A stretch of DNA of 64,000 nucleotides. Source: Bacteroidota bacterium (GTDB lineage: Bacteria; Bacteroidota; Bacteroidia; 2-12-FULL-35-15). The position numbers and the translations under genes are program-made. Positions 8,263 through 51,963 of this stretch are shown in pieces (position 1 is the stretch's first letter; each line of letters opens with the position of its first letter). The notes beneath the pieces were generated by a model. It was not told where the DNA came from. It did no database searches and worked only from the letters and a program-made list of their open reading frames with translations. Location of the stretch: positions 42,941 to 106,940 of the forward strand of contig SXIH01000038.1 of assembly GCA_005772895.1 (NCBI GenBank). The letters run 5' to 3'.

Positions 8263-8270
8263 TTCTTTCC

Positions 8271-33948: not shown

Positions 33949-35024
33949 ATTCCATTAAATAAGCTTTAATAAAATCTTTCAAATCTCCATCCATTACTGC
34001 TTGAATGTTGGATGTTTCATGTCCCGTTCTTACATCCTTAATTAATTTGTACGGATGAAAAACATAATTGCGGATTTGTGAACCCCATTCAATTTTCTTT
34101 TTATTCCCTTCAATCACATTTATGGCTTCGCGTTGTTTTCGCAATTCAATTTCGAACAATTGAGATTTTAATAATTTGATTGCGTTCTCTTTGTTTTGTA
34201 ATTGTGAACGCGATTCTTGATTTTTAATGATGATTCCGGATGGCTTGTGATACAAGCGTACTGCTGTTTCTACCTTGTTTACATTTTGTCCGCCAGCACC
34301 GCCAGCTCTAAATGTTTCAAATTCTAAATCACCAGGATTTACATCAATTTCAATTGTATCATCAATTAATGGATACGCATATACGGAAGCAAAAGAAGTA
34401 TGTCGTTTTGCATTTGAATCAAATGGAGAAATACGAACCAAACGATGAACTCCGTTTTCGCCTTTTAAATATCCGAATGCGTAATCGCCTTCAAATTCCA
34501 ATGTCACCGATTTTATTCCAGCTGTATCTCCGTCTGTTCTGTCCGTCTCTTTTATTTTATACCCGTTTTTACTTCCCCACATCATATACATTCGCATCAA
34601 CATTTCTGCCCAGTCGCAGCTTTCTGTTCCGCCTGCTCCTGCATTTATTTGTACAACACAACTTAAAATATCCTCTTTTCCACTTAGCATATTTTTGAAT
34701 TCAATTTCTTCTAACAGCTGAACAGTAGTTTGAAATTGTTCTTCTACATCTTGCTCTGTGGCTTCACCTTGCTTAAAATAATCATACAACAAGGTAAGGT
34801 CATCCACGTTGCTTTGTGCTTTAGCAAATGAAATGGTCCAATTCTTTTTTAATTTGGTTTGTTTTAGCAGTTCTTCTGCTTTTTTTGGGTCGTCCCAGAA
34901 ATTCGGTGCGAGTGCTTTCTCTTCTTCTTCAGCTATTTCGCGAAGTTTACGGTCGATGTCAAAGATGCCCCCTTAACGCACTGGTGCGCTCCCGAAGGTC
35001 TTTTAGTTGGTCTGTAGTAATCAT
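33935..35024 (-). CDS. prfB: Peptide chain release factor 2, with programmed +1 ribosomal frameshift
   Basis: Frame 1 runs from ATG 35024 and encodes [21 protein letters not shown], stopping at TGA within AGGGGGCATCTTTGAC (CTT at 34964..34962). After the +1 shift the reading continues [13 protein letters not shown]... into the track ORF 33935..34807, which carries the GGQ motif ([16 protein letters not shown]). This is the classic CUU UGA C site with an upstream SD-like AGGGGG. Confidence 0.85.
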
Positions 35025-36196: not shown

Positions 36197-36787
36197 TTGT
36201 GTTTTACTATATGTATACGTATCCAGAACAAAAAATTTGTGAGTAGTCCCGCTGAAGAAACATATAAACTAAAAGGATTGACCCGTAATGAATTTATTAC
36301 AGTGATATATAATAGGTATGGAAAAAAATTATATACCTACGCAATTCGGACCTGGAATTTAGATGAAGATGCAGCTTGGGATTTAATTTATAAAACACTT
36401 TATAAAGTTATAGATAGCTATACAAATTATGAGTTTGTATCTGAAGAAAAATTTGCTTCGTTTGTTTTCAAAATTTTTATCAATTATTTAAGAAATCACC
36501 ATCGGGATAATAAAGAAAGTAAACTGTTTGAGTTCAGCGCAATGGATGATGTAGATTTAACTACTAAAGAAGCAAAAGAAGGAGAAGAACCTCTTACAAA
36601 TAAGAAATTAATTGCTTTAAATGAAGCGCTTGATAAAATGGAAGATTGGGAACGAATGCTTTTATTAATGCGAAGTGAAGGAAGAGCCTATTCAGAAATT
36701 GCTCAATATATTGATAAACCGGAAAATCAGCTGAAAGTATATTACCAACGCTTGAAAGAACAAATTCAAAAAAAATTAAATGACTGA
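36197..36787 (+). CDS. RNA polymerase sigma factor, sigma-70 family (ECF-like)
   Basis: Region 2-like NEFITVIYNRYGKKLYTYAIRTW..DEDAAWDLIYKTLYKV and a region-4 HTH-like C-terminus (RAYSEIAQYIDKPENQLKVYYQRLK). The start is ambiguous (TTG 36197, GTG 36239 or a later ATG). Confidence 0.5.
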   Translation: MCFTICIRIQNKKFVSSPAEETYKLKGLTRNEFITVIYNRYGKKLYTYAIRTWNLDEDAAWDLIYKTLYKVIDSYTNYEFVSEEKFASFVFKIFINYLRNHHRDNKESKLFEFSAMDDVDLTTKEAKEGEEPLTNKKLIALNEALDKMEDWERMLLLMRSEGRAYSEIAQYIDKPENQLKVYYQRLKEQIQKKLND

Positions 36788-38285
36788 TCAGAAAAATAAT
36801 AACGACAAACACATTCGCGACTTGCTCAAATGGCGCCTATTAGAGCAAGCCGGGGATGATGATTTACTAACCAAAAAACTAATAGACATGGAAGCAAAAC
36901 TTGTATTTAGTAATGAGGCGCTAATGCAGCCATCCTTACAAAAAGAAAATGAATTATTAAATAAATTAAAAGAAACAAAAAGTAAGAATAGACTTTTGAA
37001 ATGGATATTGCCAAGTTTTTTGATTGTATTAACATCGATTGTGATTTTATTTTATAAGAATGATACTGCAAAACCAATCGTTGCATCAAATAATGCATCG
37101 GTAAGTCCTGAACAAAATAGTAATCTGCCAACAATTCAAACGCATACTATTGAGTCGACCGATTCTACTGTGGGTACAGTTAGCACCATTGTAGTAAAAG
37201 TTTCTGAAAAAGAACAGAAAATAGATTCAGTTAAACTTGAAGCAAAAGAAAAATGGACTGTCGGTGATGCCGGAATAAAAGTGGAGCAGAAGCAAGTTGC
37301 GCCTAAAAAGGTAGCAACCTATGACAATACGTATGAAGGTATTCCTGCTTTGTCAGAGTATCAAAAATCCTGGACAAAGAAAATGAAGGAAAAAATGGTG
37401 AAAGCGGTGATTAAGTTGGATAAGAATTCTTGGGTTTATATTCCAACTAGCACCGAATCAATTTATGGTGATGTTGTTTCAGTTCAGGGTTTCTATATGT
37501 CAAATATGGAAGTCACAAATAATACTTATCGCATATTTTTGAATGATTTGATTATCCAGGATAAGTTCGATGATTATATAAAAGCTGTTCCTGACACAGC
37601 GAAGTGGTTGACAGATATAATCAAAGGACGATCTTATGGTGAACCAATGAGAAAAAATTATTTTTGGCATCCTGCTTATGACGAGTTTCCTGTTGTGAAT
37701 GTTAGCCGGGAAGGAGTTAAAATGTTTTGTATGTGGTTAACAAATGCAGTTAACGAAAAAATAAAAGCAAGTCATTCCAAAGAAAAGTCAGAAACACTTT
37801 TAATAAATGACATCCGTATACCTGCAGAAGAAGAGTGGATTGTTGCAGCCCGCGGTGGGAAAGGTGATTATTCTTATCCTTGGTCATACAGAAGCGGTAC
37901 AAAAAATCCTCAAAATTCAAAAGGTTGCTATTTATGCAATTTCTCTATCGTAAATTATCCTGATAGTTTAAAAAATAGAGCGGAATGTTCAAACGATAAA
38001 TTGAAAAATGCGATCACATCTGCAGGAACTTATTCAAATGATTTCTTTTGCACATGCAAGGTGAATTCATACAATCCTAATGATTATGGTTTGTTTTGTA
38101 TTTGCGGAAATGTTTCAGAAATGGTATGGCAATACAAAACTAAAAATCCTTGTGCAAAAGGTGGAAGTTGGAAAAGCGATGCTGAACAAATAAAAGTAAA
38201 TGCCGAACCAGAATTAATGAATGTTACAGAAGGTAACCCAGCTCTGGGTTTCAGGCCTGTTTTTACTGCAAAAAAATCTAAATGA
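36780..38285 (+). CDS. Single-pass membrane protein with a C-terminal FGE/SUMF1 (sulfatase-modifying-factor-like) domain; putative anti-sigma/sensor partner
   Basis: 501 aa. It overlaps the sigma gene by 8 nt. It has a cytoplasmic N-terminus, one TM helix (ILPSFLIVLTSIVILFY) and a C-terminal FGE-sulfatase-like domain (VQGFYMS..EVTN..Y..F; RGG...Y.WG; GLF.ICGNVSEMVW; GGSW). Confidence 0.5.
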   Translation: MTDQKNNNDKHIRDLLKWRLLEQAGDDDLLTKKLIDMEAKLVFSNEALMQPSLQKENELLNKLKETKSKNRLLKWILPSFLIVLTSIVILFYKNDTAKPIVASNNASVSPEQNSNLPTIQTHTIESTDSTVGTVSTIVVKVSEKEQKIDSVKLEAKEKWTVGDAGIKVEQKQVAPKKVATYDNTYEGIPALSEYQKSWTKKMKEKMVKAVIKLDKNSWVYIPTSTESIYGDVVSVQGFYMSNMEVTNNTYRIFLNDLIIQDKFDDYIKAVPDTAKWLTDIIKGRSYGEPMRKNYFWHPAYDEFPVVNVSREGVKMFCMWLTNAVNEKIKASHSKEKSETLLINDIRIPAEEEWIVAARGGKGDYSYPWSYRSGTKNPQNSKGCYLCNFSIVNYPDSLKNRAECSNDKLKNAITSAGTYSNDFFCTCKVNSYNPNDYGLFCICGNVSEMVWQYKTKNPCAKGGSWKSDAEQIKVNAEPELMNVTEGNPALGFRPVFTAKKSK

Positions 38286-38450: not shown

Positions 38451-41400
38451 ATGAAGAAGATTTACAGTTGTATTTTTCTTTTTTTATTGTCATTTCTACT
38501 CCCTCTGACAATTTCGGCAACGCACATAGTAGGTGGCGTTTTGAACTATGTATATAACGGTTCAAATAGCTACACGGTTACTCTTACGCTTTATCGTGAT
38601 TGTGGAGTTGGTTCTGCAGCTTACCCTGCTACAGTTACAATACAAGTGCAGCAACCAAATGGTTCCGAGTTTGCTCCAAGTCGTGATATAACAGGTATTC
38701 CCGGTGGTCCAATTACAAATGTTCCATATACTTTAGATAGTTGCGCTGTAACACCATCACCTATTCCTTGCGTTCAGATGCGAACATATTCGGCAACAGT
38801 TACATTACCTCCTGTTAGTGGTGGTTATCATTTATATTATTCATTATGTTGTAGAAATTCTACACTTAGTAATACAACTACTTCTGATCAAACTCCCGGA
38901 CAAGATGGTGAATCTTTTTATGCTTTTATCCCGGGAACTTCACTTTGGTATGAAGATTTTACATTAGCAAATGGTACAACGGTAGATGCCGGTCCAACAG
39001 CATGGACAAGAACTTTGGGTGCAGTGCCTCCGGGTTATGCATCAGTTCAAGCAAACCTTTTTGAAGTTCAAGGTGCAAGTAATGCCCAAGCTACGTGGAC
39101 ATCTCAAGTAATAAACATTTCTACATTGACAGCCGGAGCAAATCTAAGTGTTGATTTATCTGAAGCAGGAAATATGGATGCGAATGATTCTATTTTTACT
39201 TATTATAGTTTGAATGGGGGACCATTAACGCAATTCACAACAAATGGTTTGCGTGTAGATGATTTTACTGCAGTTGTTGCAAGCCAAAATGGTTTGATTG
39301 GAACAACAGTACAAATTGTAGTTCGTGTCCACTATGATGCAGCTTCTCCAACAACTGAATTATATCGTTTTGATAATGTACAAGTTTATAATTCTGTTTC
39401 AAACAGTAATCCAACATATACTTTATTTCCTCCTCTTTTTTTATGCGTGGGAAATTTTTTCACGTTCGACCATTCGGCAACGGATTTAGATGGAGATTCT
39501 TTATTCTATTCTTTTTATACTCCTTATGCAGATGCAGCACCAACGTTTCCTCTAAACGTTGCAACATTTACTCCTTTAATTTGGAATGCCGGTTATTCTG
39601 CTACAAGCCCTTTGAATGCAGGTGGACCAGCTTTAACATTAAATTCTGCAACAGGATTGCTTTCCGGAACTCCGAATTCAATTGGTCAATTTCAAGTAGG
39701 AGTTAAAACTACAGAATACAGAAGTGGAATTAAAGTGAGTGATATGGTTCGCGACTTTCAATTTAATATTATTAATTGTCCACCTCCTGCACAAGCACTT
39801 ATTACTCCATCAGGAACATTGTCTGTTTGCAGCGGAAGCACTCTTACATTCCCAAATAATAGTGATGCTGCTGCAACAAATTGGACTTGGAATTTTGGAG
39901 ATTTAAGTACAACATCAGATACTTCAACATTACAATATCCAACATATACTTATCCCGGACCCGGATCATATACAGCAACGCTCATAACCAATGCGGGAAC
40001 ATCTTGTGCAGATACTTCCACTGCAGTGGTTACAGTAACTACACCACCAGCTTCTCCAACAGCGGGAAGCAATAGTCCGGTTTGTGTTGGAGCAACATTA
40101 AATTTAACAGCTACTCCGGTTGGCGGAGCAACTTATACATGGACAGGTCCGAATAGTTTTTCTTCTACTTTACAAAACCCTTCTATAGCAGGTGTAACAG
40201 CATTGGCTGCAGGAACATATTCGGTAACTGCAACTGTAGCAGGTTGTACAGGGCCAGCAGGAACAACAACTGTAGTCGTAAATTCTGCACCCGCTGCTCC
40301 AACAGCAGGAAGTAATTCTCCTGTTTGCGAAGGATCTCCATTAAATTTAACGGCAAATACAATTGCAGGTGCTACCTATTCATGGACAGGTCCGAATGCA
40401 TTTTCATCAGCTTTGGAAGACCCGACAATTGCAAGTCCTACGGTGTTAGCATCAGGAACATATTCTGTAACAGTTACTGTAGGAGGTTGTACTGGGCCTG
40501 CAGGAACAACAAGTGTAACAGTAAATCCATCTCCGGTTGCACCAACAGTAGGAAGCAACTCACCTGTTTGTGCTGGTTCAACAATATTATTGACTTCAAA
40601 TACAATTGCCGGTGCAACTTATTCGTGGACAGGTCCTGCTGCATATTCTTCTTCATTAGAAGATCCAACTCGCCCGGTTGCAACAGCAGCGATGGCTGGA
40701 ACATATTCTTTAACAGTAACAGTAGCTGGCTGTACAAGTCCGGTTGCGACAACAACTGTAGTAGTAAATCCAACACCTGCTGCTCCAACAGCAGGAAGCA
40801 ATTCTCCGGTTTGTGCAGGCGCAACAATAAATTTAACATCTAATACTGTAGCTGGTGCAACATATTCCTGGACAGGTCCAAGTGCATTTTCATCCGCATT
40901 AGAAGATCCAACAATTGCTTCAGCAACAGCAGCAATGGCTGGAACATATAGTTTAACAGTAACTGTAGGAGGATGTACAAGTCCGGTTGCAACAACTACT
41001 GTTGTGGTAAATCCAATTCCTGCAGCACCAACAGTTGGAAGTAATTCTCCGGTTTGTACTGGTGCAACAATTCTATTGACTTCAAATACAATTGCCGGTG
41101 CTACCTATTCATGGACAGGTCCTGCAGCATTTGCATCTGCATTAGAAGACCCAACTCGTCCGGCTGCAACATTAGCGATGGCCGGAACCTATTCATTGAC
41201 GGTAACAGTAGCAGGTTGTACAAGTCCTGTTTCAACAACAACAGTAGTAGTAAATTCAACTCCTGTAGCTCCAACTGCTGGAAGTAATTCTCCTGTTTGT
41301 GCAGGAGCTACAATAAATTTAACTTCTAATACTGTAGTAGGAGCAACTTATTCCTGGACAGGACCGAGTGCATTTTCTTCCTCATTAGAAGATCCAAGTA

Positions 41401-44400
41401 TTGCATCTGCAACAGCAGCCATGGCCGGAACATATAGTTTAACAGTGACAGTAGCTGGTTGTACAAGTCCGGTTGCGACAACAACTGTAGTAGTAAATCC
41501 AACACCTGCTGCTCCAACAGCAGGAAGTAATTCTCCTGTTTGTGTAGGTGCAACAATAAATTTAACATCTAACACTGTAGCCGGTGCAACATATTCCTGG
41601 ACAGGACCAAGTGCATTTTCTTCAGCACTTGAAGATCCAAGTATTGCATCTGCAACTTTAGCAATGGCCGGAACCTATTCATTGACGGTTACTGTAGCAG
41701 GTTGTACAAGTCCGGTTGCAACAACAACTGTTGTTGTAAATCCAATTCCTGCTGCGCCAACAGTTGGAAGTAACTCTCCTGTTTGTACAGGAACACCAAT
41801 AAATTTAACATCAAATACAATTGCCGGTGCAACATATTCTTGGACAGGTCCTGCAGCATTTGCATCTGCATTGGAAGATCCAATTCGTCCGTCTGCAACT
41901 TTAGCGATGGCCGGAACATATAGTTTAACAGTAACAGTAGCAGGTTGTACAAGTCCGGTTGCAACAACAACTGTAGTTGTAAATCCTACACCTGCAACTC
42001 CAACTGCAGGCAGTAACTCTCCGATTTGTGATGGAGCTACATTGAATTTAACTTCAAATACAATTGCCGGAGCAACTTATTCTTGGACGGGTCCGAATTC
42101 CTTTTCATCAGCATTAGAAGATCCATCAATTGTTGGAGCAACAACTCTTGCTTCCGGAACATATTCTGTAACAGCTACAGTTGCCGGCTGTACAAGTAAT
42201 CCTGGAACCACGGTAGTAACTGTAAACCCAATTCCTGCAGCACCAACAGTAGGAAGTAATTCTCCGGTTTGTACTGGCACAACAATATTATTGACTTCAA
42301 ATACTATTGCAGGTGCAACTTATGCATGGACTGGTCCGGCAGCATTTGCATCAGCCTTAGAAGATCCAACTCGTCCCGCTGCAACATTGGCAATGGCCGG
42401 AACCTATTCTTTAACAGTAACAGTAGCAGGTTGTACAAGTCCGGTTGCAACAACAACTGTAGTAGTAAATCCAACTCCTGCAGCTCCAACAGCTGGAAGT
42501 AATTCTCCTGTTTGTGCTGGAGCAACAATAAATTTAACATCTAATACTGTAGCAGGTGCAACTTATTCCTGGACAGGACCGAGTGCATTTTCTTCATTAT
42601 TAGAAGATCCAAGTATTGCATCTGCAACAGCAGCGATGGCTGGAACATATAGTTTAACAGTAACAGTAGCAGGTTGTACAAGTCCGGTTGCAACAACAAC
42701 AGTTGTTGTAAATCCAATTCCTGCAACTCCAACGGCTGGAAGTAATTCTCCAATTTGTGTTGGAGCAACATTGAATCTTACAACTCCTGCAGTTGCGGGA
42801 GCAACATATAGTTGGACAGGTCCAAACAGTTTTTCATCAGCATTACAGAATCCATCTATTGTAGGAGCAACAGCTTTAGCAACCGGAACATATTCTATAT
42901 CAGTTACTGTTTTAGGTTGTACCAGTGCAATAGGAACAGTAGCTGTTACTGTAAATTCAGCACCGGTTTCTCCTACGGCTAGTTCAAACACTCCGGTTTG
43001 TTCTGGTGATTCTTTATTGTTATTTGCTTCAACAATTGCCGGAGCAACATATTCATGGACGGGTCCGAATTCTTTTACATCAACGTTACAAAATCCATTT
43101 ATTGTTGGTGCAACAACATTAGCAGCAGGAACATATACGGTTGTTGCAAACAATGGATGCGCAAGTTCACCTGCTACAACAACAGTAGTTGTAAACCCAA
43201 CACCAGTGGCACCAACAGCAGGAAGCAATGGTCCGCTTTGTGAAGGTGCTACTTTAAATTTAACATCAAATACAATTGCTGGAGCAACATATTCTTGGAC
43301 TGGTCCAAATAGTTTTTCATCAGCATTGGAAGATCCATCAATAGTTGGAGTAACTGCAATTGCATCAGGAACGTATTCTGTTTCAGTAACTGTAAATGGA
43401 TGTACAGGTCCAATAGGAACTATTGCAGTAGTGATTAATCAACCTGCAGTTGCAAGTGCGGGACCAAATCAAACGGTTTGCGCAAACAATGCAATCATAA
43501 ATATTTCAGGAACTGTAACTGGCGGAAGTACAACAGGAATTTGGAGTACAAGTGGAACAGGAACATTCTCTCCTTCTAACACAAGTTTATCTGCAACATA
43601 TAATCCAACTAGCGCAGATACTGCTTCAGGAAGTATAACATTAACATTAACGTCAACTCTTAATGGAGCATGTGCTGCATCTGTATCGTCTCTTGTAATT
43701 ACAATTACAAATGCTCCAACTGTAAATGCGGGTGTTGATCAGAGTGTTTGTGCGAACAATGCAAATACTAATTTAAATGGAGTTGTAACAACTGCTGGTG
43801 GAGGTTTGTGGAGCACATCGGGAAGCGGAACTTTTTCACCGGATAATATTACATTGAATGCAACATACATTCCTAGTGCTGCGGATACAACAAGTGGAAT
43901 AGTTACTCTTACTTTGACGTCAACCGGAAATGGAACTTGTATAGCAGTTTCCGATACAATGATAATAACAATAACAAATGCACCAATTGCCAATGCGGGT
44001 GCTGATCAGTTTGTTTGTTTATCTAGTCCTAATGCAACTTTATCAGGAACCATAATTGGTGGAGCAGGAACAGGAATCTGGACTACATCGGGAACCGGTA
44101 CATTTTCTCCAAGTGCAACTTCTTTAACAGCAACATATATTCCTAGTTCAGTTGATACTGCTGCAGGAAATGTTGTAATTGTTTTAACAACAACTGCCAA
44201 TGGTGGATGTGCTGCAGCTACCGATACAATGACAATTAATTACACTACAATTCCAACAGTTGATGCTGGAGTTGATCAAACTGTTTGTGCAAACAATGCC
44301 TCTGTTTTATTAAATGGAACAGTGAACGGAACTTCCAACACCGGAATATGGAGCACAAGTGGAACAGGAATATTTACTCCAAACGATAGTACCTTAAATG

Positions 44401-47372
44401 CAACATATATTCCAAGTGCTGCTGATACTACTTCCGGTTCTGTAACACTTACATTGAGTTCAACAAATTCTTGTTCAGTTATTACTGATGTAATGGTAAT
44501 TACAATTACAGATGGCCCTTCTGTTTCAGCAGGTGCAGATGTAAATGTTTGCTCTAATAATCCTGATGCGAATTTAACTGCAGTAATAAGTGGCGCAACA
44601 ACAACAGGTATTTGGACAACAGCAGGAACAGGAACAATTTCTCCATCAGCAACAAGTTTAGCAATTACATATTCACCATCTGCAACTGATATTTTAAATG
44701 GAAGTGTTGATTTAATAATTACATCAACAGGAAACGGAACTTGTAATGCAGTTTTTGATACAGTAACAATAATTATTACTCCACCGCCTGCAGCATTTGC
44801 AGGAAATGATACTTCTATTTGTGCAAATACATCTTTCCAATTATCTGGAGTAATAACCGGTGGTGCAGGAACAGGAAACTGGACAACATCCGGATCGGGA
44901 ACTTTTTCACCTGCAAGTAATATTTTAAATGCAATTTATATTCCTAGCAATGCCGATACTTTAAGTGGAACTGTAACTTTAACATTGACGTCAACAAACA
45001 ATGGTGGATGTATTGCAGTAAGTGATAATATTGTTATAACAATTACTGATGCTCCAATTGCAAACGCAGGTGTTGACCAAGGTGTTTGCTCTAATAATCC
45101 TGCAGTTGCATTGAGTGGTTCTGTAACTCAGGCTAGTGGAGGTGTTTGGACAACCAGCGGAACAGGAACATTTGATGTTGCAACAAATTTAAATGCAAAT
45201 TATACTCCTTCTCCTGCAGATATTTTAAGTGGAACAATTACTTTAACACTTACAACAACTGGTAATGGAAATTGTAATCCTGCAGTTGATTCAATGTCGG
45301 TTAATTTTTCTCCTGCTCCAATTGTAAATGCAAATGCGGATCAATTTATTTGTACAGGAACTACCACAGCAGTTTTAAATGGAAGTGTTAGTGGTGGAAG
45401 TATAACAGGAATATGGACAACATTGGGTTCTGGAACATTTAGTTTGGATACCGATATGAATGCTACTTATACTTTGAGTAGTGCTGATACAACAGCAGGT
45501 TCAGTAACTCTTATTCTTACATCAACAAGTAATGGAAATTGTTTAGCAGTTTCTGATACAATGCAAATTACAATCACAACTATTCCTACTTCTAATTCAG
45601 GATTAGATCAAATACTTTGTGCAAATAATGCAAACGTAATTTTAAACGGAATTATTACAGGTGGCTCAGGAATGGGTCAATGGTCAACATATAACGGTAC
45701 AGGAACATTCAGTCCTTCGGATACAACATTAAATGCAACTTACAATTCGAGTGCTGCAGATACCGCGCAAGGTTTTGTTTCACTTGTGTTAACTCCTATC
45801 AACGCATGTTTAAATGTTCCGGATACTTTACAAATTACATTTACTGATGCTCCGGTTATTTTTGCAGGAAACGATCAATCCATTTGTAATGGAGGTACGA
45901 TCAGTTTGAGTGCAACTATGAATGCTGTGTCATCAGGAATGATTTGGACTACGAGCGGTACAGGGACGTTTGCGCCTGATGATTCTTCTTTAGCTGTAAC
46001 TTATAATCCATCTGTTGGAGATGCAACTTTAGACACTATTTATTTTTATGCTACTACAACAGGAAATGGAAATTGTTTTGCAGTGATGGATACTGTTATG
46101 GTTTTATTGGGAAATACTCCTGTTGCAGATTTTACAACTTCAGGTAATTGTAGCGGACTATTAGTTTCGTTTACAGATATTTCAACAGTTTCGCCTGGAA
46201 CAGTAAGCGGATGGATTTGGGATTTTGGTGATACTAATACATCGGTTTTACAAAATCCAACAAACATTTACACAGCAGCGGGAACATATACTGTAACTTT
46301 GGTTGCATCTTCCGGTGCAGGTTGCAGTGATTCGATTGTAAAAGTAATTGTTATTAATCCTCTACCTGTTGCAGCATTTAGTTATGTTTCAAATTGTACT
46401 TCTGACAGTGTTCTGTTTACAGATAATTCTACTATTTCTTCCGGTACAATTTCACAATGGTCATGGAATTTTGGAGATTCAACATCTTCAGTATTGCAAA
46501 ATCCGATTCAAGTTTATAGTGTGATAGATACATTCTCGGTTACACTTACTGTTACTTCTGATTCTGGTTGTGTTGCAAATATTACACAAAATGTAATTGT
46601 TGCTCCACGACCAACTGCAAACTTTGGTTACTCTATTAATTGTGCAACTGGCATAGCAATTTTTACTGATTCGTCAACGATAGACGGAAACGATTCCATT
46701 ATTTCTTATAGTTGGAATTTTGGAAATAGTACGACTTCTACACTTCAAAATCCTTTACCTGTAATGTATAATCCGGGAACGTATATTGTTCAGCTGATTG
46801 TAACAACGCAAGGAGGCTGTAGTGATATTGATACTGTAACGATAGTTATAACAGCTCCTCCGATTGCAGATTATATTCCTCAGGGTGGACAATACCAAAT
46901 CGGACAAACAATAAACTTTACAGATCAAAGTCAAAATGCCACTTCTTACTATTGGACTTTTGGAAACAATAATAATACATCCATTGTTCAGAATCCAAGT
47001 TATTCATATGGAGTGAATGGTAATTATATTGTGACACTTATCGCTACAAACGCAAGCGGCTGTTCTGATACTGCAGCATATCAATTTGAAATAATCGGAA
47101 GTTCAATAGTTGCACCTACTGCATTTTCACCAAATGGTGATGGATTGAATGATTACTTCAGCATCAAAGGCGGACCATTTAATTCTTATGAATTAAGAGT
47201 GTTTAATGAATGGGGACAACAAATATTTATTTCTAATAGCCAAGATACCGGTTGGGATGGAACATATAAAAGAAAAGACCAGCCAGCTGGTTCATACGTT
47301 TATATTTTTGTTGGAGTAAGCTATACAAATGAAGAAATTAAAATGCAAGGAGAAATTGCTATAACACGTTAA
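38451..47372 (+). CDS. Giant cell-surface adhesin-like protein (2973 aa) with a T9SS type-B C-terminal sorting domain
   Basis: Signal peptide, then a ~520-aa N-terminal region, then 14 tandem ~80-aa repeats (SPVCxGATxNLTSNTxAGATYSWTGP..F.S.LEDP), 10 tandem ~90-aa repeats (AG.DQ.VC.NN....L.G.V...W.TSGTG.F.P), four PKD-like domains (W.FGD...S..QNP...Y...G.Y.V.L), and the terminal gliding-motility-associated C-terminal domain (FSPNGDGLNDYF.I.G....Y.L.VFNEWGQ..F). Confidence 0.8.
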   Translation: MKKIYSCIFLFLLSFLLPLTISATHIVGGVLNYVYNGSNSYTVTLTLYRDCGVGSAAYPATVTIQVQQPNGSEFAPSRDITGIPGGPITNVPYTLDSCAVTPSPIPCVQMRTYSATVTLPPVSGGYHLYYSLCCRNSTLSNTTTSDQTPGQDGESFYAFIPGTSLWYEDFTLANGTTVDAGPTAWTRTLGAVPPGYASVQANLFEVQGASNAQATWTSQVINISTLTAGANLSVDLSEAGNMDANDSIFTYYSLNGGPLTQFTTNGLRVDDFTAVVASQNGLIGTTVQIVVRVHYDAASPTTELYRFDNVQVYNSVSNSNPTYTLFPPLFLCVGNFFTFDHSATDLDGDSLFYSFYTPYADAAPTFPLNVATFTPLIWNAGYSATSPLNAGGPALTLNSATGLLSGTPNSIGQFQVGVKTTEYRSGIKVSDMVRDFQFNIINCPPPAQALITPSGTLSVCSGSTLTFPNNSDAAATNWTWNFGDLSTTSDTSTLQYPTYTYPGPGSYTATLITNAGTSCADTSTAVVTVTTPPASPTAGSNSPVCVGATLNLTATPVGGATYTWTGPNSFSSTLQNPSIAGVTALAAGTYSVTATVAGCTGPAGTTTVVVNSAPAAPTAGSNSPVCEGSPLNLTANTIAGATYSWTGPNAFSSALEDPTIASPTVLASGTYSVTVTVGGCTGPAGTTSVTVNPSPVAPTVGSNSPVCAGSTILLTSNTIAGATYSWTGPAAYSSSLEDPTRPVATAAMAGTYSLTVTVAGCTSPVATTTVVVNPTPAAPTAGSNSPVCAGATINLTSNTVAGATYSWTGPSAFSSALEDPTIASATAAMAGTYSLTVTVGGCTSPVATTTVVVNPIPAAPTVGSNSPVCTGATILLTSNTIAGATYSWTGPAAFASALEDPTRPAATLAMAGTYSLTVTVAGCTSPVSTTTVVVNSTPVAPTAGSNSPVCAGATINLTSNTVVGATYSWTGPSAFSSSLEDPSIASATAAMAGTYSLTVTVAGCTSPVATTTVVVNPTPAAPTAGSNSPVCVGATINLTSNTVAGATYSWTGPSAFSSALEDPSIASATLAMAGTYSLTVTVAGCTSPVATTTVVVNPIPAAPTVGSNSPVCTGTPINLTSNTIAGATYSWTGPAAFASALEDPIRPSATLAMAGTYSLTVTVAGCTSPVATTTVVVNPTPATPTAGSNSPICDGATLNLTSNTIAGATYSWTGPNSFSSALEDPSIVGATTLASGTYSVTATVAGCTSNPGTTVVTVNPIPAAPTVGSNSPVCTGTTILLTSNTIAGATYAWTGPAAFASALEDPTRPAATLAMAGTYSLTVTVAGCTSPVATTTVVVNPTPAAPTAGSNSPVCAGATINLTSNTVAGATYSWTGPSAFSSLLEDPSIASATAAMAGTYSLTVTVAGCTSPVATTTVVVNPIPATPTAGSNSPICVGATLNLTTPAVAGATYSWTGPNSFSSALQNPSIVGATALATGTYSISVTVLGCTSAIGTVAVTVNSAPVSPTASSNTPVCSGDSLLLFASTIAGATYSWTGPNSFTSTLQNPFIVGATTLAAGTYTVVANNGCASSPATTTVVVNPTPVAPTAGSNGPLCEGATLNLTSNTIAGATYSWTGPNSFSSALEDPSIVGVTAIASGTYSVSVTVNGCTGPIGTIAVVINQPAVASAGPNQTVCANNAIINISGTVTGGSTTGIWSTSGTGTFSPSNTSLSATYNPTSADTASGSITLTLTSTLNGACAASVSSLVITITNAPTVNAGVDQSVCANNANTNLNGVVTTAGGGLWSTSGSGTFSPDNITLNATYIPSAADTTSGIVTLTLTSTGNGTCIAVSDTMIITITNAPIANAGADQFVCLSSPNATLSGTIIGGAGTGIWTTSGTGTFSPSATSLTATYIPSSVDTAAGNVVIVLTTTANGGCAAATDTMTINYTTIPTVDAGVDQTVCANNASVLLNGTVNGTSNTGIWSTSGTGIFTPNDSTLNATYIPSAADTTSGSVTLTLSSTNSCSVITDVMVITITDGPSVSAGADVNVCSNNPDANLTAVISGATTTGIWTTAGTGTISPSATSLAITYSPSATDILNGSVDLIITSTGNGTCNAVFDTVTIIITPPPAAFAGNDTSICANTSFQLSGVITGGAGTGNWTTSGSGTFSPASNILNAIYIPSNADTLSGTVTLTLTSTNNGGCIAVSDNIVITITDAPIANAGVDQGVCSNNPAVALSGSVTQASGGVWTTSGTGTFDVATNLNANYTPSPADILSGTITLTLTTTGNGNCNPAVDSMSVNFSPAPIVNANADQFICTGTTTAVLNGSVSGGSITGIWTTLGSGTFSLDTDMNATYTLSSADTTAGSVTLILTSTSNGNCLAVSDTMQITITTIPTSNSGLDQILCANNANVILNGIITGGSGMGQWSTYNGTGTFSPSDTTLNATYNSSAADTAQGFVSLVLTPINACLNVPDTLQITFTDAPVIFAGNDQSICNGGTISLSATMNAVSSGMIWTTSGTGTFAPDDSSLAVTYNPSVGDATLDTIYFYATTTGNGNCFAVMDTVMVLLGNTPVADFTTSGNCSGLLVSFTDISTVSPGTVSGWIWDFGDTNTSVLQNPTNIYTAAGTYTVTLVASSGAGCSDSIVKVIVINPLPVAAFSYVSNCTSDSVLFTDNSTISSGTISQWSWNFGDSTSSVLQNPIQVYSVIDTFSVTLTVTSDSGCVANITQNVIVAPRPTANFGYSINCATGIAIFTDSSTIDGNDSIISYSWNFGNSTTSTLQNPLPVMYNPGTYIVQLIVTTQGGCSDIDTVTIVITAPPIADYIPQGGQYQIGQTINFTDQSQNATSYYWTFGNNNNTSIVQNPSYSYGVNGNYIVTLIATNASGCSDTAAYQFEIIGSSIVAPTAFSPNGDGLNDYFSIKGGPFNSYELRVFNEWGQQIFISNSQDTGWDGTYKRKDQPAGSYVYIFVGVSYTNEEIKMQGEIAITR
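40045..43440 (+). repeat. 14 near-identical tandem ~240-bp coding repeats inside the giant adhesin gene
   Basis: Long stretches are identical at the nucleotide level (for example aattctcctgtttgtgc...ggaacatatagtttaacagt recurs). This explains the many spurious overlapping ORFs on both strands in the track. Confidence 0.85.
43440..46120 (+). repeat. 10 tandem ~270-bp coding repeats (second repeat class) inside the giant adhesin gene
   Basis: Periodic AG.DQ.VCANN ... ITITNAP units. More diverged than the first repeat class. Confidence 0.7.
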
Positions 47373-47376: not shown

Positions 47377-48366
47377 ATGAAAAAAGCACTCACATATTTT
47401 ATCTTGATTTGCAGTTATACTTTGTCTGCACAGGATTTTCACATATCGCAGTACGATGTGTTGACGTTGTATAATAATCCAGGATTAACCGGAGTTTACA
47501 ATGAAGAACAAAAAGTAGATTATAAAGTTTATTTGACTCATCGTTCTCAATGGAAGTCGTTAGGGATTAAACCTTTTAAGACTTATTCTGTTGCATACGA
47601 TATGAAATATAAACGTTTTGGAATAGGAGGAGTGCTTCTGAATAATCGCTCAGGTGCGGGAAATTTTAACACATTAAACTTTCTACTTTCTGGTTCATAT
47701 TTTATTGTTAAAGATCCTGAATCTCCACATACTCTAAATGTTGGACTTCAGATGGGTTTAATAAACAAGTCTTTCGACTCTGAAAAATATTTGTATGAAA
47801 GTCAGTACAATTCTTCAACCGGAATGCTTGATGAAAATATTGAAAGCGGGGAGATGTATTCAAAAACAAGCATTTTAAGATTTGATGCAAATGTTGGCGT
47901 TTATTATAGTTACAATGAAAAATCAAAAAACTATCATCCTTTCATTGGTTTTTCATTTTATCATTTGACAAAGCCAAATGAATCATTTACTACTACACCA
48001 AGCAGAATGCCTATGCGATTTAATTTAAATCCAGGGTGTGAATTTATTGTTAATGAAAAAGTAAAATTGACTCCGAGTATTTTATACATGAATCAGGCAA
48101 AAGCTTCAGAGTTTAATATCGGTGTATTAGGAACATATCGAATAAAAGAAAAAAATGATGTTATTTATGGGTTGAATTATCGTTGGAAGGATGCAATTAT
48201 TATTCATGTTGGTTTCCGGAAAGATAATTTAGTTTTGAGAATGAGTTATGATGTGAATGCTTCTTATTTGTCTCCTTATACAGGACGTAAAGGAGGATTT
48301 GAAATGTCGTTAACGATGACCGGTAAAAAAGGGGAAAATCCACTTAAATCAGTAAAGTCTTTTTAG
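47377..48366 (+). CDS. PorP/SprF-family type IX secretion system membrane protein
   Basis: 329 aa with a signal peptide and the QDxH(F)SQY N-terminal motif. It sits 4 nt downstream of a type-B CTD cargo gene, the canonical cargo-PorP pairing. Confidence 0.75.
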   Translation: MKKALTYFILICSYTLSAQDFHISQYDVLTLYNNPGLTGVYNEEQKVDYKVYLTHRSQWKSLGIKPFKTYSVAYDMKYKRFGIGGVLLNNRSGAGNFNTLNFLLSGSYFIVKDPESPHTLNVGLQMGLINKSFDSEKYLYESQYNSSTGMLDENIESGEMYSKTSILRFDANVGVYYSYNEKSKNYHPFIGFSFYHLTKPNESFTTTPSRMPMRFNLNPGCEFIVNEKVKLTPSILYMNQAKASEFNIGVLGTYRIKEKNDVIYGLNYRWKDAIIIHVGFRKDNLVLRMSYDVNASYLSPYTGRKGGFEMSLTMTGKKGENPLKSVKSF

Positions 48367-48375: not shown

Positions 48376-49710
48376 CTATATCAATCCTCTCGCTTTCAAT
48401 TCCAAATATTTATTTATAGTATTTACAGATAAATTTTGCGGAGCGGCTAAAATGCTATGAATACCATATTTCTCTAATTCTTTTACAATCAATTTTTTTT
48501 CGTAAGAAAACTTTTCTGCAATTGTTTTGTTGTATACTTCTTCAGTGCTGATAGCTGGTTTATTAAGAAAAGAGCGTAATTCGGTATTTTCAAAAAAGAT
48601 TACAACTAGTAAATGATCTTTGGCAATTCGTCTTAAATATTTTAATTGTCGCTGTAAGCCCGACAATGTTTCAAAGTTGGTATACAATAAAAACAAACTC
48701 CGTTGATTGATTTTTGTTTTTACATTAATGTATAAATTTTCAAAATCACTTTCCAAATAACCTGTTTTTTGATTGTACAGCAATTCCATTATTTTTTGCA
48801 ATTGCGCATTTCTTCTGTCAGCGGGTAAAACAGATTGTACTTTGTTCGAAAAAGTAACGATTCCGGCTTTGTCTTGTTTGAGCATGGCAATGTTGGAAAT
48901 CACCAAGCTGGAGTTGATTGCATAATCCAAAAGACTTAATCCTTCAAATGGCATACGCATAATCCGTCCCATATCAATTACCGAATACACCTGTTGTGAT
49001 TTTTCATCTTGATATTGATTGATCATCAATTTGTTCCTACGGGCAGTAGCTTTCCAGTTTACTGTTCTATAATCATCGCCTGCAACGTATTCTTTTATTT
49101 GTTCAAATTCAGCATTGTTTCCTCTTCTCCGTATTTTCTTAATTCCGGCATCTGTTAACCTGTTGGAGATAGCTAATAATTCATATTTACGCATTTGCAT
49201 AAAGGATGGATAAACCGGAACCATCATGTCTTGCGAAAAGCGATAACGTTTTTTAATAAATCCAATCGGGCTTTTTACATAAATATTTACAGCTCCGAAA
49301 TGATATTCACCGCGCTTTACAGGATGAACGTCATATTCGATAATCTTATTTTTGCCTGGTTCAATGGATAATTTAAACTCTTTATCACGTGCCTGAAACT
49401 GAAAAGGCAACTCATCGATTATTCCAATACGTGCAGGAAATAAATATCGGTTTTCAATAATTATTTGAACAGGGTTGTCGTCTCCATTAGATAATTTATC
49501 CAATGTATCTCTTCGTGCAAAAATGCCATCTTTGTTTATGAAAAGTATTAGTATGTCAATAAAAAACAAAGCAACAATTGCAATTAAAACATAATGAGCA
49601 ATTATGTAAAGTGTAGGAAAGAAAAATCCAAGTACCAGAAATACTACTTCTGCTGCTATAATATAGTATAGCAGATTTGAAATGTATATGGACTTGAAAA
49701 ATGTTTTCAT
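48376..49710 (-). CDS. DUF58 domain protein (vWA-like, two N-terminal TM helices)
   Basis: 444 aa with the DUF58 signature GNNAEFEQIKEYVAGDDYRTVNWKATARRNKLMINQYQDE. Confidence 0.7.
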   Translation of the reverse strand: MKTFFKSIYISNLLYYIIAAEVVFLVLGFFFPTLYIIAHYVLIAIVALFFIDILILFINKDGIFARRDTLDKLSNGDDNPVQIIIENRYLFPARIGIIDELPFQFQARDKEFKLSIEPGKNKIIEYDVHPVKRGEYHFGAVNIYVKSPIGFIKKRYRFSQDMMVPVYPSFMQMRKYELLAISNRLTDAGIKKIRRRGNNAEFEQIKEYVAGDDYRTVNWKATARRNKLMINQYQDEKSQQVYSVIDMGRIMRMPFEGLSLLDYAINSSLVISNIAMLKQDKAGIVTFSNKVQSVLPADRRNAQLQKIMELLYNQKTGYLESDFENLYINVKTKINQRSLFLLYTNFETLSGLQRQLKYLRRIAKDHLLVVIFFENTELRSFLNKPAISTEEVYNKTIAEKFSYEKKLIVKELEKYGIHSILAAPQNLSVNTINKYLELKARGLI

Positions 49711-49715
49711 TTTAA

Positions 49716-50693
49716 TTATCTTGGAATTTCAATTTTTTCGATGATTCCTTTGATGACATCCTTTGTTGTAATTCCTTCCATTTCTTTTTCAGGAGTTAAA
49801 ATAACTCTGTGTTTTAAAACATGTGAGGCAACAAATTTCACATCATCCGGTGTAACAAAATCTCTTCCACGCATTGCTGCAATTGCCTTCGAGCTGGTTA
49901 AAATGGCTAGTGATGCACGTGGGGATGCACCCAGATACAAAGAAGAATTATTTCTTGTTTGATTTACAATTTTTGCAATGTAAGAGATTAAGTTTGCATC
50001 AATGTGAACATGCCCTACTTTTTCTCTGTAGTCTGCTACTTCAGAAGCATTCATTACACCAATAACCGAATTAATATCTATTTTGTTTTTACTTGCATGA
50101 TAATCTCCAATAATCTTAGTTTCATCATCCAATGTTGGATAGTCAACTTCTATTTTAAATAAAAACCTATCAAGCTGTGCTTCGGGTAAACGATATGTTC
50201 CTTCTTGTTCAACAGGATTCTGAGTTGCCAATACTATGAATGGCGGAGCTAGTAAATAAGTTTTCCCATCAACCGTGATTTGACGCTCTTCCATTGCTTC
50301 AAATAAAGCAGATTGTGTTTTTGCCGGAGCACGATTGATTTCATCAATTAAAACTATGTTTGAAAAAAGAGGTCCTTGCTTAAACTCAAATTCCGATGTT
50401 TTCAAATTGTAAATACTAGTTCCGATAATATCAGAAGGCATTAAATCTGGAGTAAATTGAATTCTGGAAAATCCAACTTTCATTGTTCTTGCCAAAAGTT
50501 TTGCGGAAAGTGTTTTTGCAACACCCGGAACACCTTCAATTAAAACATGTCCATCAGCCAAAACTGCTGCAATCAATAATTCTATCATATTGTCTTGCCC
50601 GACAATGATTTTGTTGACTTCTCTTTTAATGTTGGTTACAGCTAGCTGCAGTCCACTTAAATCAACTCTGTTTTGAAATACTTGTTCTTCCAT
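49716..50693 (-). CDS. MoxR-family AAA+ ATPase
   Basis: 325 aa with Walker A HVLIEGVPGVAKT, Walker B VLIDEINRAPAKTQSALFEAMEE, and a conserved C-terminal MoxR region. Confidence 0.9.
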   Translation of the reverse strand: MEEQVFQNRVDLSGLQLAVTNIKREVNKIIVGQDNMIELLIAAVLADGHVLIEGVPGVAKTLSAKLLARTMKVGFSRIQFTPDLMPSDIIGTSIYNLKTSEFEFKQGPLFSNIVLIDEINRAPAKTQSALFEAMEERQITVDGKTYLLAPPFIVLATQNPVEQEGTYRLPEAQLDRFLFKIEVDYPTLDDETKIIGDYHASKNKIDINSVIGVMNASEVADYREKVGHVHIDANLISYIAKIVNQTRNNSSLYLGASPRASLAILTSSKAIAAMRGRDFVTPDDVKFVASHVLKHRVILTPEKEMEGITTKDVIKGIIEKIEIPR

Positions 50694-50733
50694 ATTTGTT
50701 AGTTTTATTTTTTAATATTGTCTGAAATGTCAA

Positions 50734-51963
50734 TTACCTTTTATTCTTTTTGTGAAACTCTTCAATCATTCTATTTAATTTTAATAACTCTTGCTGACTA
50801 ATCGCAGATTTTACACTTATATCTGCAAAATAGTAAAACAAGTCATGCACTTTTTGTCTTTCAATTCCTGATAAATTTGTTATTCTATCAATAAAAACAT
50901 CGTCATATAAGTTTGTTTTTACTTGAAAAGTTGAACGAATGTATTCTAAAAAGTATACTATTTTTTTATCAGCAATATTTTTGTGATTTCCTGTTTGATA
51001 GTATAAAGTGCCAACAATATCAACAAAATCCAAAGTTGTATTACGCAATGGTTCTACAACAGGAATGATTCTTTGTTTGCGTTTTATTCCTATAATTATA
51101 AATAATAATAAGGAAAGCAATAAAACATAGTACGCACTTTTTAAAGCCGGATTATTAAAAATAACTCTTAATGAGCTTTCTTTTTTAATATTACCTGCTT
51201 TATAATGTTCATCCCAAATAACTGTTTGGTTCGGTAGGTACGACAATGCTTTATAAGAATAATCGTAATTCTGTTTGTTGACAAAAAGATAATTTGTAAA
51301 CACTTCAGGAACCGTACTCAAATAAATATTACCTTTTCCCCAATTGATTTTAATAAAGTTAATCTTGTTGTCAATAGTATTTCCTAAGACTATTGTTTTT
51401 GATGTATCGAATGATTTAAAATAAGTATTGTCTATTCCCTTTGAATAAACATAATTTGTTTTTCGCTTTAATAGTGGGTTTGTAAAATTTATTACTGCTG
51501 TATCATATGGCTTATAAAATTGGCTGAGACTTATTGAATCATTTTCAAATGTTTCTTCAATTCCATAATAGTTATCTGTCTCTAACTTTAGAGTATCAGC
51601 AAATTTTCCGGAAAAATAATTTGCAGCAATAAATATTGAGTTTCCATTTTTTGCAAATTCTAGTAACTCACGTGTATCTAATTTGTCGGGTTCAAATGTA
51701 TTGTTAATGATGATATAATTGCTTTTTGTTAAGTCCTGATCGTTTAATACATTATATATGGGGAACATTTCTGTATTAATTTCCTGCCCGGGAAAAATAC
51801 TTGGCAACACATCATATAAAGCAGACGTTCCAAATGGAATAATATCTTTTTTCATAAAAGTCTGAGCCCAATTGATTGGTTTTGGTGCCATCACTTGAAG
51901 TAAGATAAGTCCTATGAAACAAAGGCTTACAATAAAAATATATTTTTTGCTGCCTTTAAACAT
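50734..51963 (-). CDS. Hypothetical membrane-anchored protein (DUF4350-like)
   Basis: 409 aa with an N-terminal TM anchor, a large extracytoplasmic domain and a C-terminal TM helix. The position within the MoxR/DUF58 module fits DUF4350, but I cannot confirm by motif. Confidence 0.35.
   Translation of the reverse strand: MFKGSKKYIFIVSLCFIGLILLQVMAPKPINWAQTFMKKDIIPFGTSALYDVLPSIFPGQEINTEMFPIYNVLNDQDLTKSNYIIINNTFEPDKLDTRELLEFAKNGNSIFIAANYFSGKFADTLKLETDNYYGIEETFENDSISLSQFYKPYDTAVINFTNPLLKRKTNYVYSKGIDNTYFKSFDTSKTIVLGNTIDNKINFIKINWGKGNIYLSTVPEVFTNYLFVNKQNYDYSYKALSYLPNQTVIWDEHYKAGNIKKESSLRVIFNNPALKSAYYVLLLSLLLFIIIGIKRKQRIIPVVEPLRNTTLDFVDIVGTLYYQTGNHKNIADKKIVYFLEYIRSTFQVKTNLYDDVFIDRITNLSGIERQKVHDLFYYFADISVKSAISQQELLKLNRMIEEFHKKNKR

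What the first reader, a model, noticed from the sequence alone, without database searches (positions are those of the whole stretch)
38451..47372. 2973-aa T9SS type-B adhesin built from two classes of tandem repeats with near-identical DNA copies
There are 14 copies of an ~80-aa repeat and 10 copies of a ~90-aa repeat, plus four PKD-like domains and a gliding-motility-type C-terminal domain. The first repeat class is almost identical at the nucleotide level over 240-bp units (40045..43440). That implies recent expansion or gene conversion and a high probability of copy-number variation by slipped-strand or recombination events. It is also a classic short-read assembly collapse site. The dozens of overlapping ORFs in the track on both strands here are artefacts of this periodicity.
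Basis: seen in the sequence. Interest (0 to 1): 0.55.

Follow-up and report, generated by a model that had tools for sequence, protein, structure and literature searches.

The report
Giant T9SS surface fibre, diverged repeats
This is a real 2973-residue cell-surface fibre protein of an uncultured freshwater Bacteroidia bacterium, related in its stalk to the "grappling hook" protein GhpA, but its repeats are old and well diverged at the DNA level, so it is an ordinary member of a known class.

Summary
The ORF 38451..47372 (+), 2973 aa, is real. The domain inventory is correct: 14 units of 81 aa (Pfam Ig_7), 10 units of 88-90 aa, four C-terminal PKD domains plus a fifth before the array, and a T9SS type B sorting domain. 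A PorP/SprF gene starts 4 nt downstream.

The claim of "near-identical DNA copies" is wrong. Class A units are 60-92% identical (mean 73%). The longest exact repeat is 68 nt. The closest unit pair has dS 0.29 and dN/dS 0.06. A species with saturated dS (L008) has the same 14+10 architecture and 2972 aa, although its interior class A units have turned over.

The prediction of instability and assembly trouble is partly borne out. One otherwise identical assembly lacks exactly one 243-nt unit, at the longest exact repeat between adjacent units (48 nt). At least six contigs of this strain and its relatives end inside the array.

New here: the stalk and base match the solved Aureispira grappling-hook protein GhpA (2049 bits). 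The class B repeat has no Pfam model, yet it occurs in more than 6000 protein clusters. The head carries a CBM-like jelly roll.

Verdict: a new member of a known kind; modest interest.

The parts
38451..38519 (+). Sec signal peptide, aa 1-23 (MKKIYSCIFLFLLSFLLPLTISA)
   Evidence: Read directly from the translation. No signal-peptide predictor was available, so this rests on inspection.
38520..39815 (+). N-terminal head, aa 24-455. It is a conserved two-part beta module (ATHIVGG...YRDC...CCRN, then a He_PIG/cadherin-like Ig domain at aa ~320-455) interrupted by a jelly-roll insert.
   Evidence: AF2 model with mean pLDDT 88.5. 115 homologues were found, mostly ~720-aa PKD+CHU_C proteins that cover only ~30% of the head. 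Weak He_PIG match at aa 371-429. No match to GhpA residues 1-1100.
38946..39392 (+). CBM/MAM-like beta-jelly-roll inserted in the head, aa ~166-314 (approximate bounds)
39816..40052 (+). PKD domain 0, aa 456-534
   Evidence: PKD_4 E 1.5e-14 at aa 458-529.
40053..43451 (+). Class A array: 14 tandem Ig_7 units of 81 aa (unit 13 is 80 aa), aa 535-1667. Subtypes: a = units 4, 6, 7, 11; b = units 3, 5, 8, 10; c = units 1, 2, 9, 12, 14; unit 13 is an outlier.
   Evidence: Pfam Ig_7 (PF19081) 83.9 bits. Aligns to the GhpA stem, residues 1108-4538. dS between units is 0.29 or more.
42410..42457 (+). 48-nt exact repeat, left copy (end of unit 10). This is the junction of the one-unit deletion seen in L003.
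   Evidence: Identical to 42653..42700. It is the longest exact match at lag 243 in the array. The deletion breakpoint maps anywhere within it, with zero other mismatches.
42653..42700 (+). 48-nt exact repeat, right copy (end of unit 11). The Logan k=31 contig L004 starts at 42671, 30 nt (k-1) before the end of this copy.
43452..46124 (+). Class B array: 10 tandem units of 88-90 aa, aa 1668-2558. They are Ig-like, each with two conserved Cys, and of the type found in the GhpA base.
   Evidence: protein identity 33-66%. No Pfam hit. AF2 model pLDDT 76, with best PDB match 9fly_A (GhpA base), 34% identity, E 2e-4. Aligns to GhpA 4483-5727. Positionally orthologous to the L008 units.
46125..47105 (+). 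Four PKD domains, aa 2559-2885
   Evidence: PKD_4 152.5 bits with 5 stretches over the whole protein. W/Y-x-W-x-F-G-D/N motifs at aa 2588, 2670, 2753 and 2833.
47112..47363 (+). T9SS type B C-terminal sorting domain, aa 2888-2971
   Evidence: CHU_C 62.2 bits (cut-off 27). TIGR04131 45.8 bits (cut-off 35).
47377..48366 (+). Cognate PorP/SprF-family outer-membrane protein, 329 aa, starting 4 nt after the stop codon of the giant gene
   Evidence: TIGR03519 155.5 bits (cut-off 90.55) and PF11751 117 bits. The same pairing is conserved in L008, L012, L013 and L015.

Best explanation
The gene encodes a Sec-exported protein that the type IX secretion system moves across the outer membrane by way of its type B C-terminal domain. 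The protein is then held on the cell surface by the dedicated PorP/SprF-family beta-barrel, which is co-transcribed 4 nt downstream.

About 29 Ig-like domains form a long stalk: 1 PKD, 14 Ig_7 (class A), 10 GhpA-base-type (class B) and 4 PKD. Scaling from GhpA gives a length of roughly 100 nm. The stalk is acidic and almost free of Lys and Arg. It holds out an N-terminal head that contains a carbohydrate-binding-module-like jelly roll, so the protein most likely works as a long-reach adhesin for a glycan-bearing surface, particle or cell.

The two repeat arrays are old structural spacers under purifying selection, not a fast-switching contingency locus. The class B array is positionally conserved between species. 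The interior of the class A array evolves by slow duplication and loss of one- or two-unit blocks, through recombination at short exact matches, while the total has stayed at 14.

Shown: domain content, CTD, PorP pairing, homology to the GhpA stem and base, divergence of the units, conservation of the architecture. Inferred: surface anchoring, glycan binding, stalk length, unit turnover by recombination.
For: - Domains and CTD score above the curated cut-offs.
- A PorP/SprF gene lies immediately downstream, here and in four relatives. Published work shows that type B cargo needs, and binds, the PorP/SprF protein encoded directly downstream (PMC9143113; PMC12618676).
- GhpA (PDB 9flp and others) matches at 2049 bits and collinearly: class A to the stem, class B to the base, CTD to CTD. 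The class B model best matches 9fly_A.
- dS between units is at least 0.29, with dN/dS 0.05-0.32.
- The L008 ortholog has 14 A + 10 B units and 2972 aa at saturated dS. Class B is 74.6% identical in register. The terminal A units are orthologous, while the interior a-type and b-type units each map to a single L008 unit.
- K+R is 0 in 891 aa of class B and 4 in 1133 aa of class A.
Against: - No experiment or expression data are available.
- The ligand of the head is unknown. A CBM-like fold also occurs in MAM and other protein-binding modules.
- T9SS core genes are not in the window, so secretion competence of the host is inferred only from four CTD-bearing genes here.
- No PorE-like gene follows PorP, so the mode of anchoring (static or mobile) is open.
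- Conservation of '14' rests on only two complete orthologs. L016 has at least 15 units and L003 has 13.
Confidence: 0.75

Rival explanations
1. It is a true GhpA-type grappling hook. Several parallel chains (seven in GhpA) would assemble outside the cell into a rigid hollow fibre of fixed length, about half as long as the Aureispira hook and tipped with a different, CBM-like head, used to catch prey or partner cells.
For: Collinear homology of stem, base and CTD to GhpA. A PorP homologue lies downstream, as ghpB does. Each repeat has two conserved Cys, and GhpA uses inter-domain disulfides. Class B is enriched in the Bacteroidota O-glycosylation sequon (17 observed against 6.7 +/- 2.1 in shuffles), and GhpA is glycosylated. 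Total length is conserved between species despite unit turnover, which fits a fibre of defined length.
Against: The GhpA hook module (residues 26-1402) has no counterpart here. No PorE/ghpC gene is downstream. Ig_7 and class B repeats are widespread in CHU_C proteins (more than 6000 clusters for class B alone), so a high score against GhpA is expected for any such protein. Oligomerisation cannot be tested with these tools.
Confidence: 0.2
2. It is an SprB-like mobile gliding adhesin. A single flexible chain would be loaded by its SprF-like partner onto the gliding track and propelled along the cell surface.
For: Type B CTD with an SprF-family gene directly downstream. In F. johnsoniae the mobile type B substrates are those not encoded in operons with a PorE-like protein (PMC12618676), and none is present here.
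Against: No match to the SprB repeat family PF13573. The protein is half the size of SprB. Nothing in the window shows that the organism glides. The upstream 501-aa protein matches GldK/GldJ models only far below their cut-offs, and it is absent from relatives.
Confidence: 0.15
3. It is a rapidly varying contingency adhesin whose copy number changes often by slipped-strand or recombination events, and/or the 14-unit array is an assembly artefact.
For: L003, from a sister sample, is identical over 17.7 kb except for a clean 243-nt deletion at the longest exact repeat between adjacent units. P0003 (92% identical head) has a different order of interior units. L016 has at least 15 units. Many contigs break in the array.
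Against: Units are 60-92% identical and the longest exact repeat is 68 nt. dS between units is at least 0.29. The 14-unit form was assembled at least twice: the same 2973-aa protein is on two contigs, and a third contig, from the NCBI assembly GCA_005801785.1, differs by 1 SNP. The 14+10 architecture is conserved at saturated dS. The L003 deletion could itself be a de Bruijn mis-join at k below 48, and that contig is short (18.6 kb against 534 kb).
Confidence: 0.15

Closest known systems
GhpA, grappling hook protein A of Aureispira sp. CCB-QB1 (PDB 9flp, 9fly and others; bioRxiv 10.1101/2024.01.29.577165)
   Same: Sec signal peptide. Long run of Ig_7-type stem repeats, followed by a second Ig-like repeat type near the base, then a type B CTD. 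PorP homologue encoded downstream. phmmer score 2049 bits, collinear. The class B model matches 9fly_A at 34% identity.
   Different: Half the length (2973 vs 5898 aa; 24 + 5 PKD domains vs 52 repeats). The N-terminal hook module is replaced by an unrelated head with a CBM-like jelly roll. Four PKD domains lie between base and CTD. No PorE (ghpC) gene downstream. Heptamer formation is unknown.
SprB/SprF of Flavobacterium johnsoniae and other type B CTD cargo with PorP/SprF-like shuttle pairs (PMC9143113, PMC12618676)
   Same: Giant repetitive surface protein with a TIGR04131 CTD, and the cognate PorP/SprF gene immediately downstream.
   Different: No SprB repeats (PF13573). Different head. No evidence of a role in motility.
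CHU_C / Ig_7 'gliding motility-associated C-terminal domain' proteins of Cytophagia and Flavobacteriia, including the ~720-aa head+PKD+CHU_C family found
   Same: The same head core module, PKD domains and CHU_C domain. Ig_7 is defined by Pfam as a CHU_C-associated Ig-like domain.
   Different: Here a 24-domain stalk is inserted between the head and PKD/CTD, and the head has gained a jelly-roll insert.
Gram-positive adhesins with DNA-identical tandem repeats (Rib/alpha-C, SasG, Bap type; from general knowledge)
   Same: Tandem Ig-like spacer domains that project a binding head from the cell surface.
   Different: Those have near-100% identical DNA repeats and frequent copy-number change. Here the units have diverged to dS of at least 0.29 and the copy number is conserved between species.

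Membership tests
T9SS type B CTD cargo | C-terminal TIGR04131 / CHU_C sorting domain above the curated cut-off | tested here: met
   TIGR04131 45.8 bits (cut-off 35). PF13585 62.2 bits (cut-off 27). Both at aa 2888-2971.
T9SS type B CTD cargo | N-terminal Sec signal peptide | tested here: met
   By inspection only: MKKIYSCIFLFLLSFLLPLTISA|THIVGG. No predictor was run.
T9SS type B CTD cargo | Cognate PorP/SprF-family gene directly downstream | tested here: met
   47377..48366, TIGR03519 155.5 bits (cut-off 90.55), 4-nt gap. Conserved in L008, L012, L013 and L015.
T9SS type B CTD cargo | Host encodes the T9SS core (SprA/Sov, PorK/L/M/N, etc.) | not testable with these tools
   The core genes are not in the 64-kb window. 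Indirect support: three type A CTD proteins at 19084..23406.
GhpA grappling hook | Stem of Ig_7-type repeats homologous to the GhpA stem | tested here: met
   Query aa 562-1617 aligns to GhpA 1108-4538 in several registers, at 238-508 bits each.
GhpA grappling hook | Base-type repeats preceding the CTD | tested here: met
   Query aa 1402-2289 aligns to GhpA 4483-5367 (211 bits). Foldseek best hit 9fly_A.
GhpA grappling hook | N-terminal hook module (GhpA residues 26-1402) | tested here: not met
   No significant alignment of aa 1-534 to GhpA 1-1100. The head folds as a beta module plus a CBM-like jelly roll.
GhpA grappling hook | ghpB (PorP) and ghpC (PorE) downstream | tested here: inconclusive
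   A PorP homologue is present. The next gene is DUF58 on the opposite strand, so there is no PorE/OmpA-like gene.
GhpA grappling hook | Heptameric hollow rigid fibre | not testable with these tools
   This needs cryo-EM/ET or multimer modelling.
SprB gliding adhesin | SprB repeats (PF13573) | tested here: not met
   No PF13573 hit at E <= 0.01 for the whole protein.
Tandem-repeat contingency adhesin with DNA-identical units | Near-identical DNA copies (long exact repeats) that permit frequent slippage | tested here: not met
   Identity 60-92%. Longest exact repeat 68 nt. dS at least 0.29.
Tandem-repeat contingency adhesin with DNA-identical units | Copy-number polymorphism among close strains | tested here: inconclusive
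   L003 has 13 units against 14 in an otherwise identical sequence, but an assembly mis-join cannot be excluded.

The most novel reading that the evidence does not exclude
The protein is a half-length, GhpA-type multi-stranded 'grappling' fibre with a glycan-binding (CBM-like) tip in a freshwater Bacteroidia lineage. Its stalk length would be held at 14 + 10 domains by selection, even though the interior class A units are continually duplicated and lost. That would make fibre length, not sequence, the conserved trait.
Probability: 0.15. Interest if true: 0.55.

Novelty: new member of a known kind. Interest (0 to 1): 0.3.

Why it matters
It corrects a tempting inference. A giant, visibly periodic gene is not necessarily a hypervariable or mis-assembled one. 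Here the units are old, are under purifying selection, and can be resolved by short reads.

It also links an unannotated metagenomic giant protein to the only solved structure of its class (GhpA).

It shows that the ~89-aa 'base-type' repeat is a large family (more than 6000 clusters at 50% identity) that still has no Pfam model.

Finally, it offers a small natural experiment on how stalk length is maintained while repeat units turn over.

Tried and rejected
- Sequence search of the class B profile and of the head against PDB gave nothing useful. The GhpA link appeared only with the fold search and with the whole protein as query.
- Sigma-70 promoter and terminator scans around the gene found fewer sites than in shuffled sequence, and they do not model Bacteroidota promoters.
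- I considered the ECF sigma + FGE-sulfatase pair upstream (36197..38285) as a dedicated regulator. I rejected it as a conserved part of the system, because the orthologous loci L006-L008 have RecX directly upstream and lack the pair.
- The JGI metagenome scan yielded only two loci, one of them informative (L016).
- I could not decide whether the L003 one-unit deletion is biological, because no reads are available.
- I did not test the alternative-frame ORFs for homologues. Their 80-codon periodicity makes them artefacts.

Full report
**1. Observation**

The window holds one ORF at 38451..47372 (+) of 2973 aa. Tandem Repeats Finder reports one array, 40054..42926, with period 243, 11.8 copies and 75% matches.

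The in-register repeat finder and motif counting give 14 units spaced 243 nt apart (the last spacing is 240). I place them at 40053..43451, aa 535-1667. A second class of 10 units of 88-90 aa occupies 43452..46124, aa 1668-2558.

Pfam and NCBIfam give the following:
- Ig_7 (PF19081, 'CHU_C-associated Ig-like domain') for class A.
- PKD_4 in five stretches: one at aa 456-529 and four at aa ~2559-2885.
- CHU_C (62.2 bits, cut-off 27) and TIGR04131 'T9SS type B sorting domain' (45.8 bits, cut-off 35) at aa 2888-2971.

The gene also contains 33 other open frames of at least 60 aa. Twenty of them lie in the class A array, and many are exactly 80 codons, with one stop per unit.

**2. The 'near-identical DNA copies' claim fails**

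- Pairwise DNA identity of the 14 class A units is 60-92%, with mean 73% and median 72%.
- The most similar pair (units 6 and 11) is 92% identical.
- The longest exact direct repeat anywhere in the ORF is 68 nt (40731 vs 41460).
- Protein identity within subtypes is higher than DNA identity: 94-96% against 86-92% for units 4, 6, 7 and 11.
- Nei-Gojobori estimates give dS 0.29-0.60 and dN/dS 0.05-0.14 within that subtype. The minimum pS over all 91 pairs is 0.24. Third-codon positions vary in 75 of 81 columns.
- Class B units are 33-66% identical in protein and 51-66% in DNA.

These are old copies under purifying selection. They are not recently expanded and are not being homogenised.

**3. Comparison with other assemblies and relatives**

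*The same strain in other assemblies.*
- The exact 2973-aa protein is on two contigs, one of them 534 kb long and identical to the window.
- A further contig, from the NCBI assembly GCA_005801785.1, carries a 2973-aa version with one non-synonymous SNP (window 41911).
- A sister-sample contig (L003) encodes 2892 aa. It is identical to the window over 8679 nt of the gene plus 9 kb of flanks, except for one clean 243-nt deletion.
- The deletion breakpoint lies within a 48-nt exact repeat (42410-42457 = 42653-42700). This is the longest exact match between adjacent units in the whole array.
- A k=31 Logan contig (L004) begins at 42671, which is k-1 = 30 nt before the end of the same repeat.

*Relatives.*
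- Contigs of relatives L006, L007, L011 and L016, and the contig encoding P0003, all run off their ends inside the class A array. The array is therefore a real short-read break point.
- The 13-unit form is either a genuine unit loss by recombination at the 48-nt match or a low-k mis-join. I cannot tell which without reads.

*Deeper comparison with L008.* This locus comes from a curated 1.05-Mb MAG contig. Its head is 83% identical to the window's, and its synteny is the same: fumC-prfB-hyp-RecX-[gene]-PorP-DUF58.
- Its ortholog is 2972 aa, with 14 class A and 10 class B units.
- Synonymous sites between the two species are saturated (pS 0.71-0.81) in every part of the gene.
- Class B aligns in register at 74.6% identity. 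That is far above the 49% mean between units within the window, so the array predates the split and has been stable.
- In class A, units 1, 2, 3, 9, 13 and 14 have positional counterparts in L008.
- The window's a-type units (4, 6, 7, 11) all best match L008 unit 6. The b-type units (3, 5, 8, 10) all best match L008 unit 3.
- L008 carries twice the unit pair that the window has only once, as units 12-13.

The interior has therefore turned over by block duplication and loss since the split, yet both species end with 14 units.

*Other relatives.*
- P0003 (head 92% identical) has yet another interior order.
- L016 (head 82% identical) has at least 15 units.
- More distant relatives have about 18 + 12 (L009) and about 8 + 10 (L012) units.

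Copy number does change, but on the timescale of species divergence.

**4. What it is**

The gene is followed after 4 nt by a PorP/SprF-family gene (TIGR03519 155.5 bits, cut-off 90.55). The same pairing occurs in L008, L012, L013 and L015.

Published work shows that type B CTD cargo depends on, and binds, the PorP/SprF-like protein encoded directly downstream, and is anchored through it (PMC9143113; PMC12618676).

Searching the whole protein against PDB sequences gives a 2049-bit match to GhpA, the 5898-aa grappling hook protein of Aureispira:
- Class A aligns along the GhpA stem (residues 1108-4538).
- Class B aligns to residues 4483-5727.
- The CTD aligns weakly to residues 5799-5882.

An AF2 model of a class B unit (pLDDT 76, seven-stranded Ig-like fold) has the GhpA base structure 9fly_A as its only PDB match with E <= 0.001, at 34% identity.

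According to the GhpA paper (bioRxiv 10.1101/2024.01.29.577165), GhpA has these features:
- a heptameric, hollow, glycosylated, 240-nm fibre made of 52 Ig-like repeats;
- an N-terminal hook module;
- a type B CTD;
- PorP and PorE homologues encoded downstream.

The present protein shares the stem, the base, the CTD and the PorP gene. It has no counterpart of the hook module and no PorE gene; the next gene is DUF58 on the other strand.

Its head (aa 24-455; AF2 pLDDT 88.5) has two parts:
- A core module shared with many ~720-aa PKD+CHU_C proteins.

The stalk is acidic and nearly free of Lys and Arg. Class B is enriched in the D-[ST]-[AILVMT] sequon, at two conserved positions per unit.

**5. 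Mechanism**

*Most likely:* a T9SS-secreted, PorP/SprF-anchored, long-reach adhesin with a glycan-binding tip on a stalk of about 29 domains.

*Open question:* whether the stalk is a single flexible chain, as proposed for SprB, or a multi-stranded rigid fibre like GhpA. I rate the GhpA-like assembly at about 0.2. Ig_7 and class B repeats are generic to CHU_C proteins: the class B profile alone hits 6066 cluster representatives, with up to 67 copies per protein. Such proteins show no Pfam match on the repeats and end in PKD + CHU_C.

**6. Novelty and verdict**

This is a new member of a known kind, the giant type B CTD surface fibres. The claim of near-identical DNA, and the inference of recent expansion or gene conversion, are wrong. 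The prediction of assembly trouble is borne out. The prediction of copy-number variation is borne out only weakly.

Interest is modest. The points worth keeping are the GhpA homology, the uncurated class B domain family, and the possibly length-constrained turnover of the class A units.

Noticed in passing
window 43452..46124 (class B repeats): The ~89-aa class B Ig-like repeat has no Pfam-A or NCBIfam match, yet its profile finds 6066 cluster representatives (E <= 1e-3) among 1.84 billion proteins. Some proteins carry up to 67 copies. Proteins made almost entirely of it score nothing in Pfam apart from terminal PKD + CHU_C. It is a large domain family without a curated model; the solved example is the GhpA base (9fly).
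   Followed up: partly
window 36197..38285: An ECF-type sigma factor (196 aa) overlaps the start of a 501-aa protein with an FGE-sulfatase domain. That protein matches GldK/GldJ models only far below their cut-offs. The pair sits between RecX and the giant gene. The orthologous loci L006-L008 lack the pair and have RecX directly upstream, so it is a lineage-specific insertion. Whether it now regulates the giant gene is unknown.
   Followed up: partly
L008 (JBJMLR010000011.1) vs window 38451..47372: The ortholog in a species with saturated dS is 2972 aa, against 2973 aa here, and both have 14 class A units. Yet the interior units are not one-to-one orthologs: each lineage duplicated different units. 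This is either coincidence or selection on stalk length.
   Followed up: partly
window 40053..46124: The stalk is almost devoid of basic residues. K+R is 4 in 1133 aa of class A (the Arg residues are in the b-type 'TRP' motif) and 0 in 891 aa of class B, with 26 and 43 acidic residues respectively. This may reflect protease resistance or charge repulsion from the cell surface.
   Followed up: no
window 19084..23406: Three consecutive genes (332, 363 and 633 aa) each end in a type A T9SS sorting domain (Por_Secre_tail, PF18962) and have no other Pfam hit except a FlgD_ig-like stretch. They are further T9SS cargo in the same neighbourhood.
   Followed up: no
window ~34964 (- strand), prfB 33935..34807: The release factor 2 ORF matches the prfB model only from position 69. 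Upstream, in another frame, lies AGGGGGCATCTTTGAC, the classical Shine-Dalgarno-like element plus CUU UGA C site of programmed +1 frameshifting.
   Followed up: partly
window 48376..54651 (- strand): Directly downstream of PorP/SprF, on the opposite strand, is an operon of DUF58, MoxR-type AAA ATPase, DUF4350, two unannotated genes and a SpoIIM-like gene. It is conserved next to the giant gene in L008. No link to the fibre is evident.
   Followed up: no
L016 (JGI24806J26614_1001091) 4173..9391: A relative with an 82% identical head has at least 15 class A units before its contig ends inside the array. This is the only relative seen with more than 14 units of the same type.
   Followed up: partly
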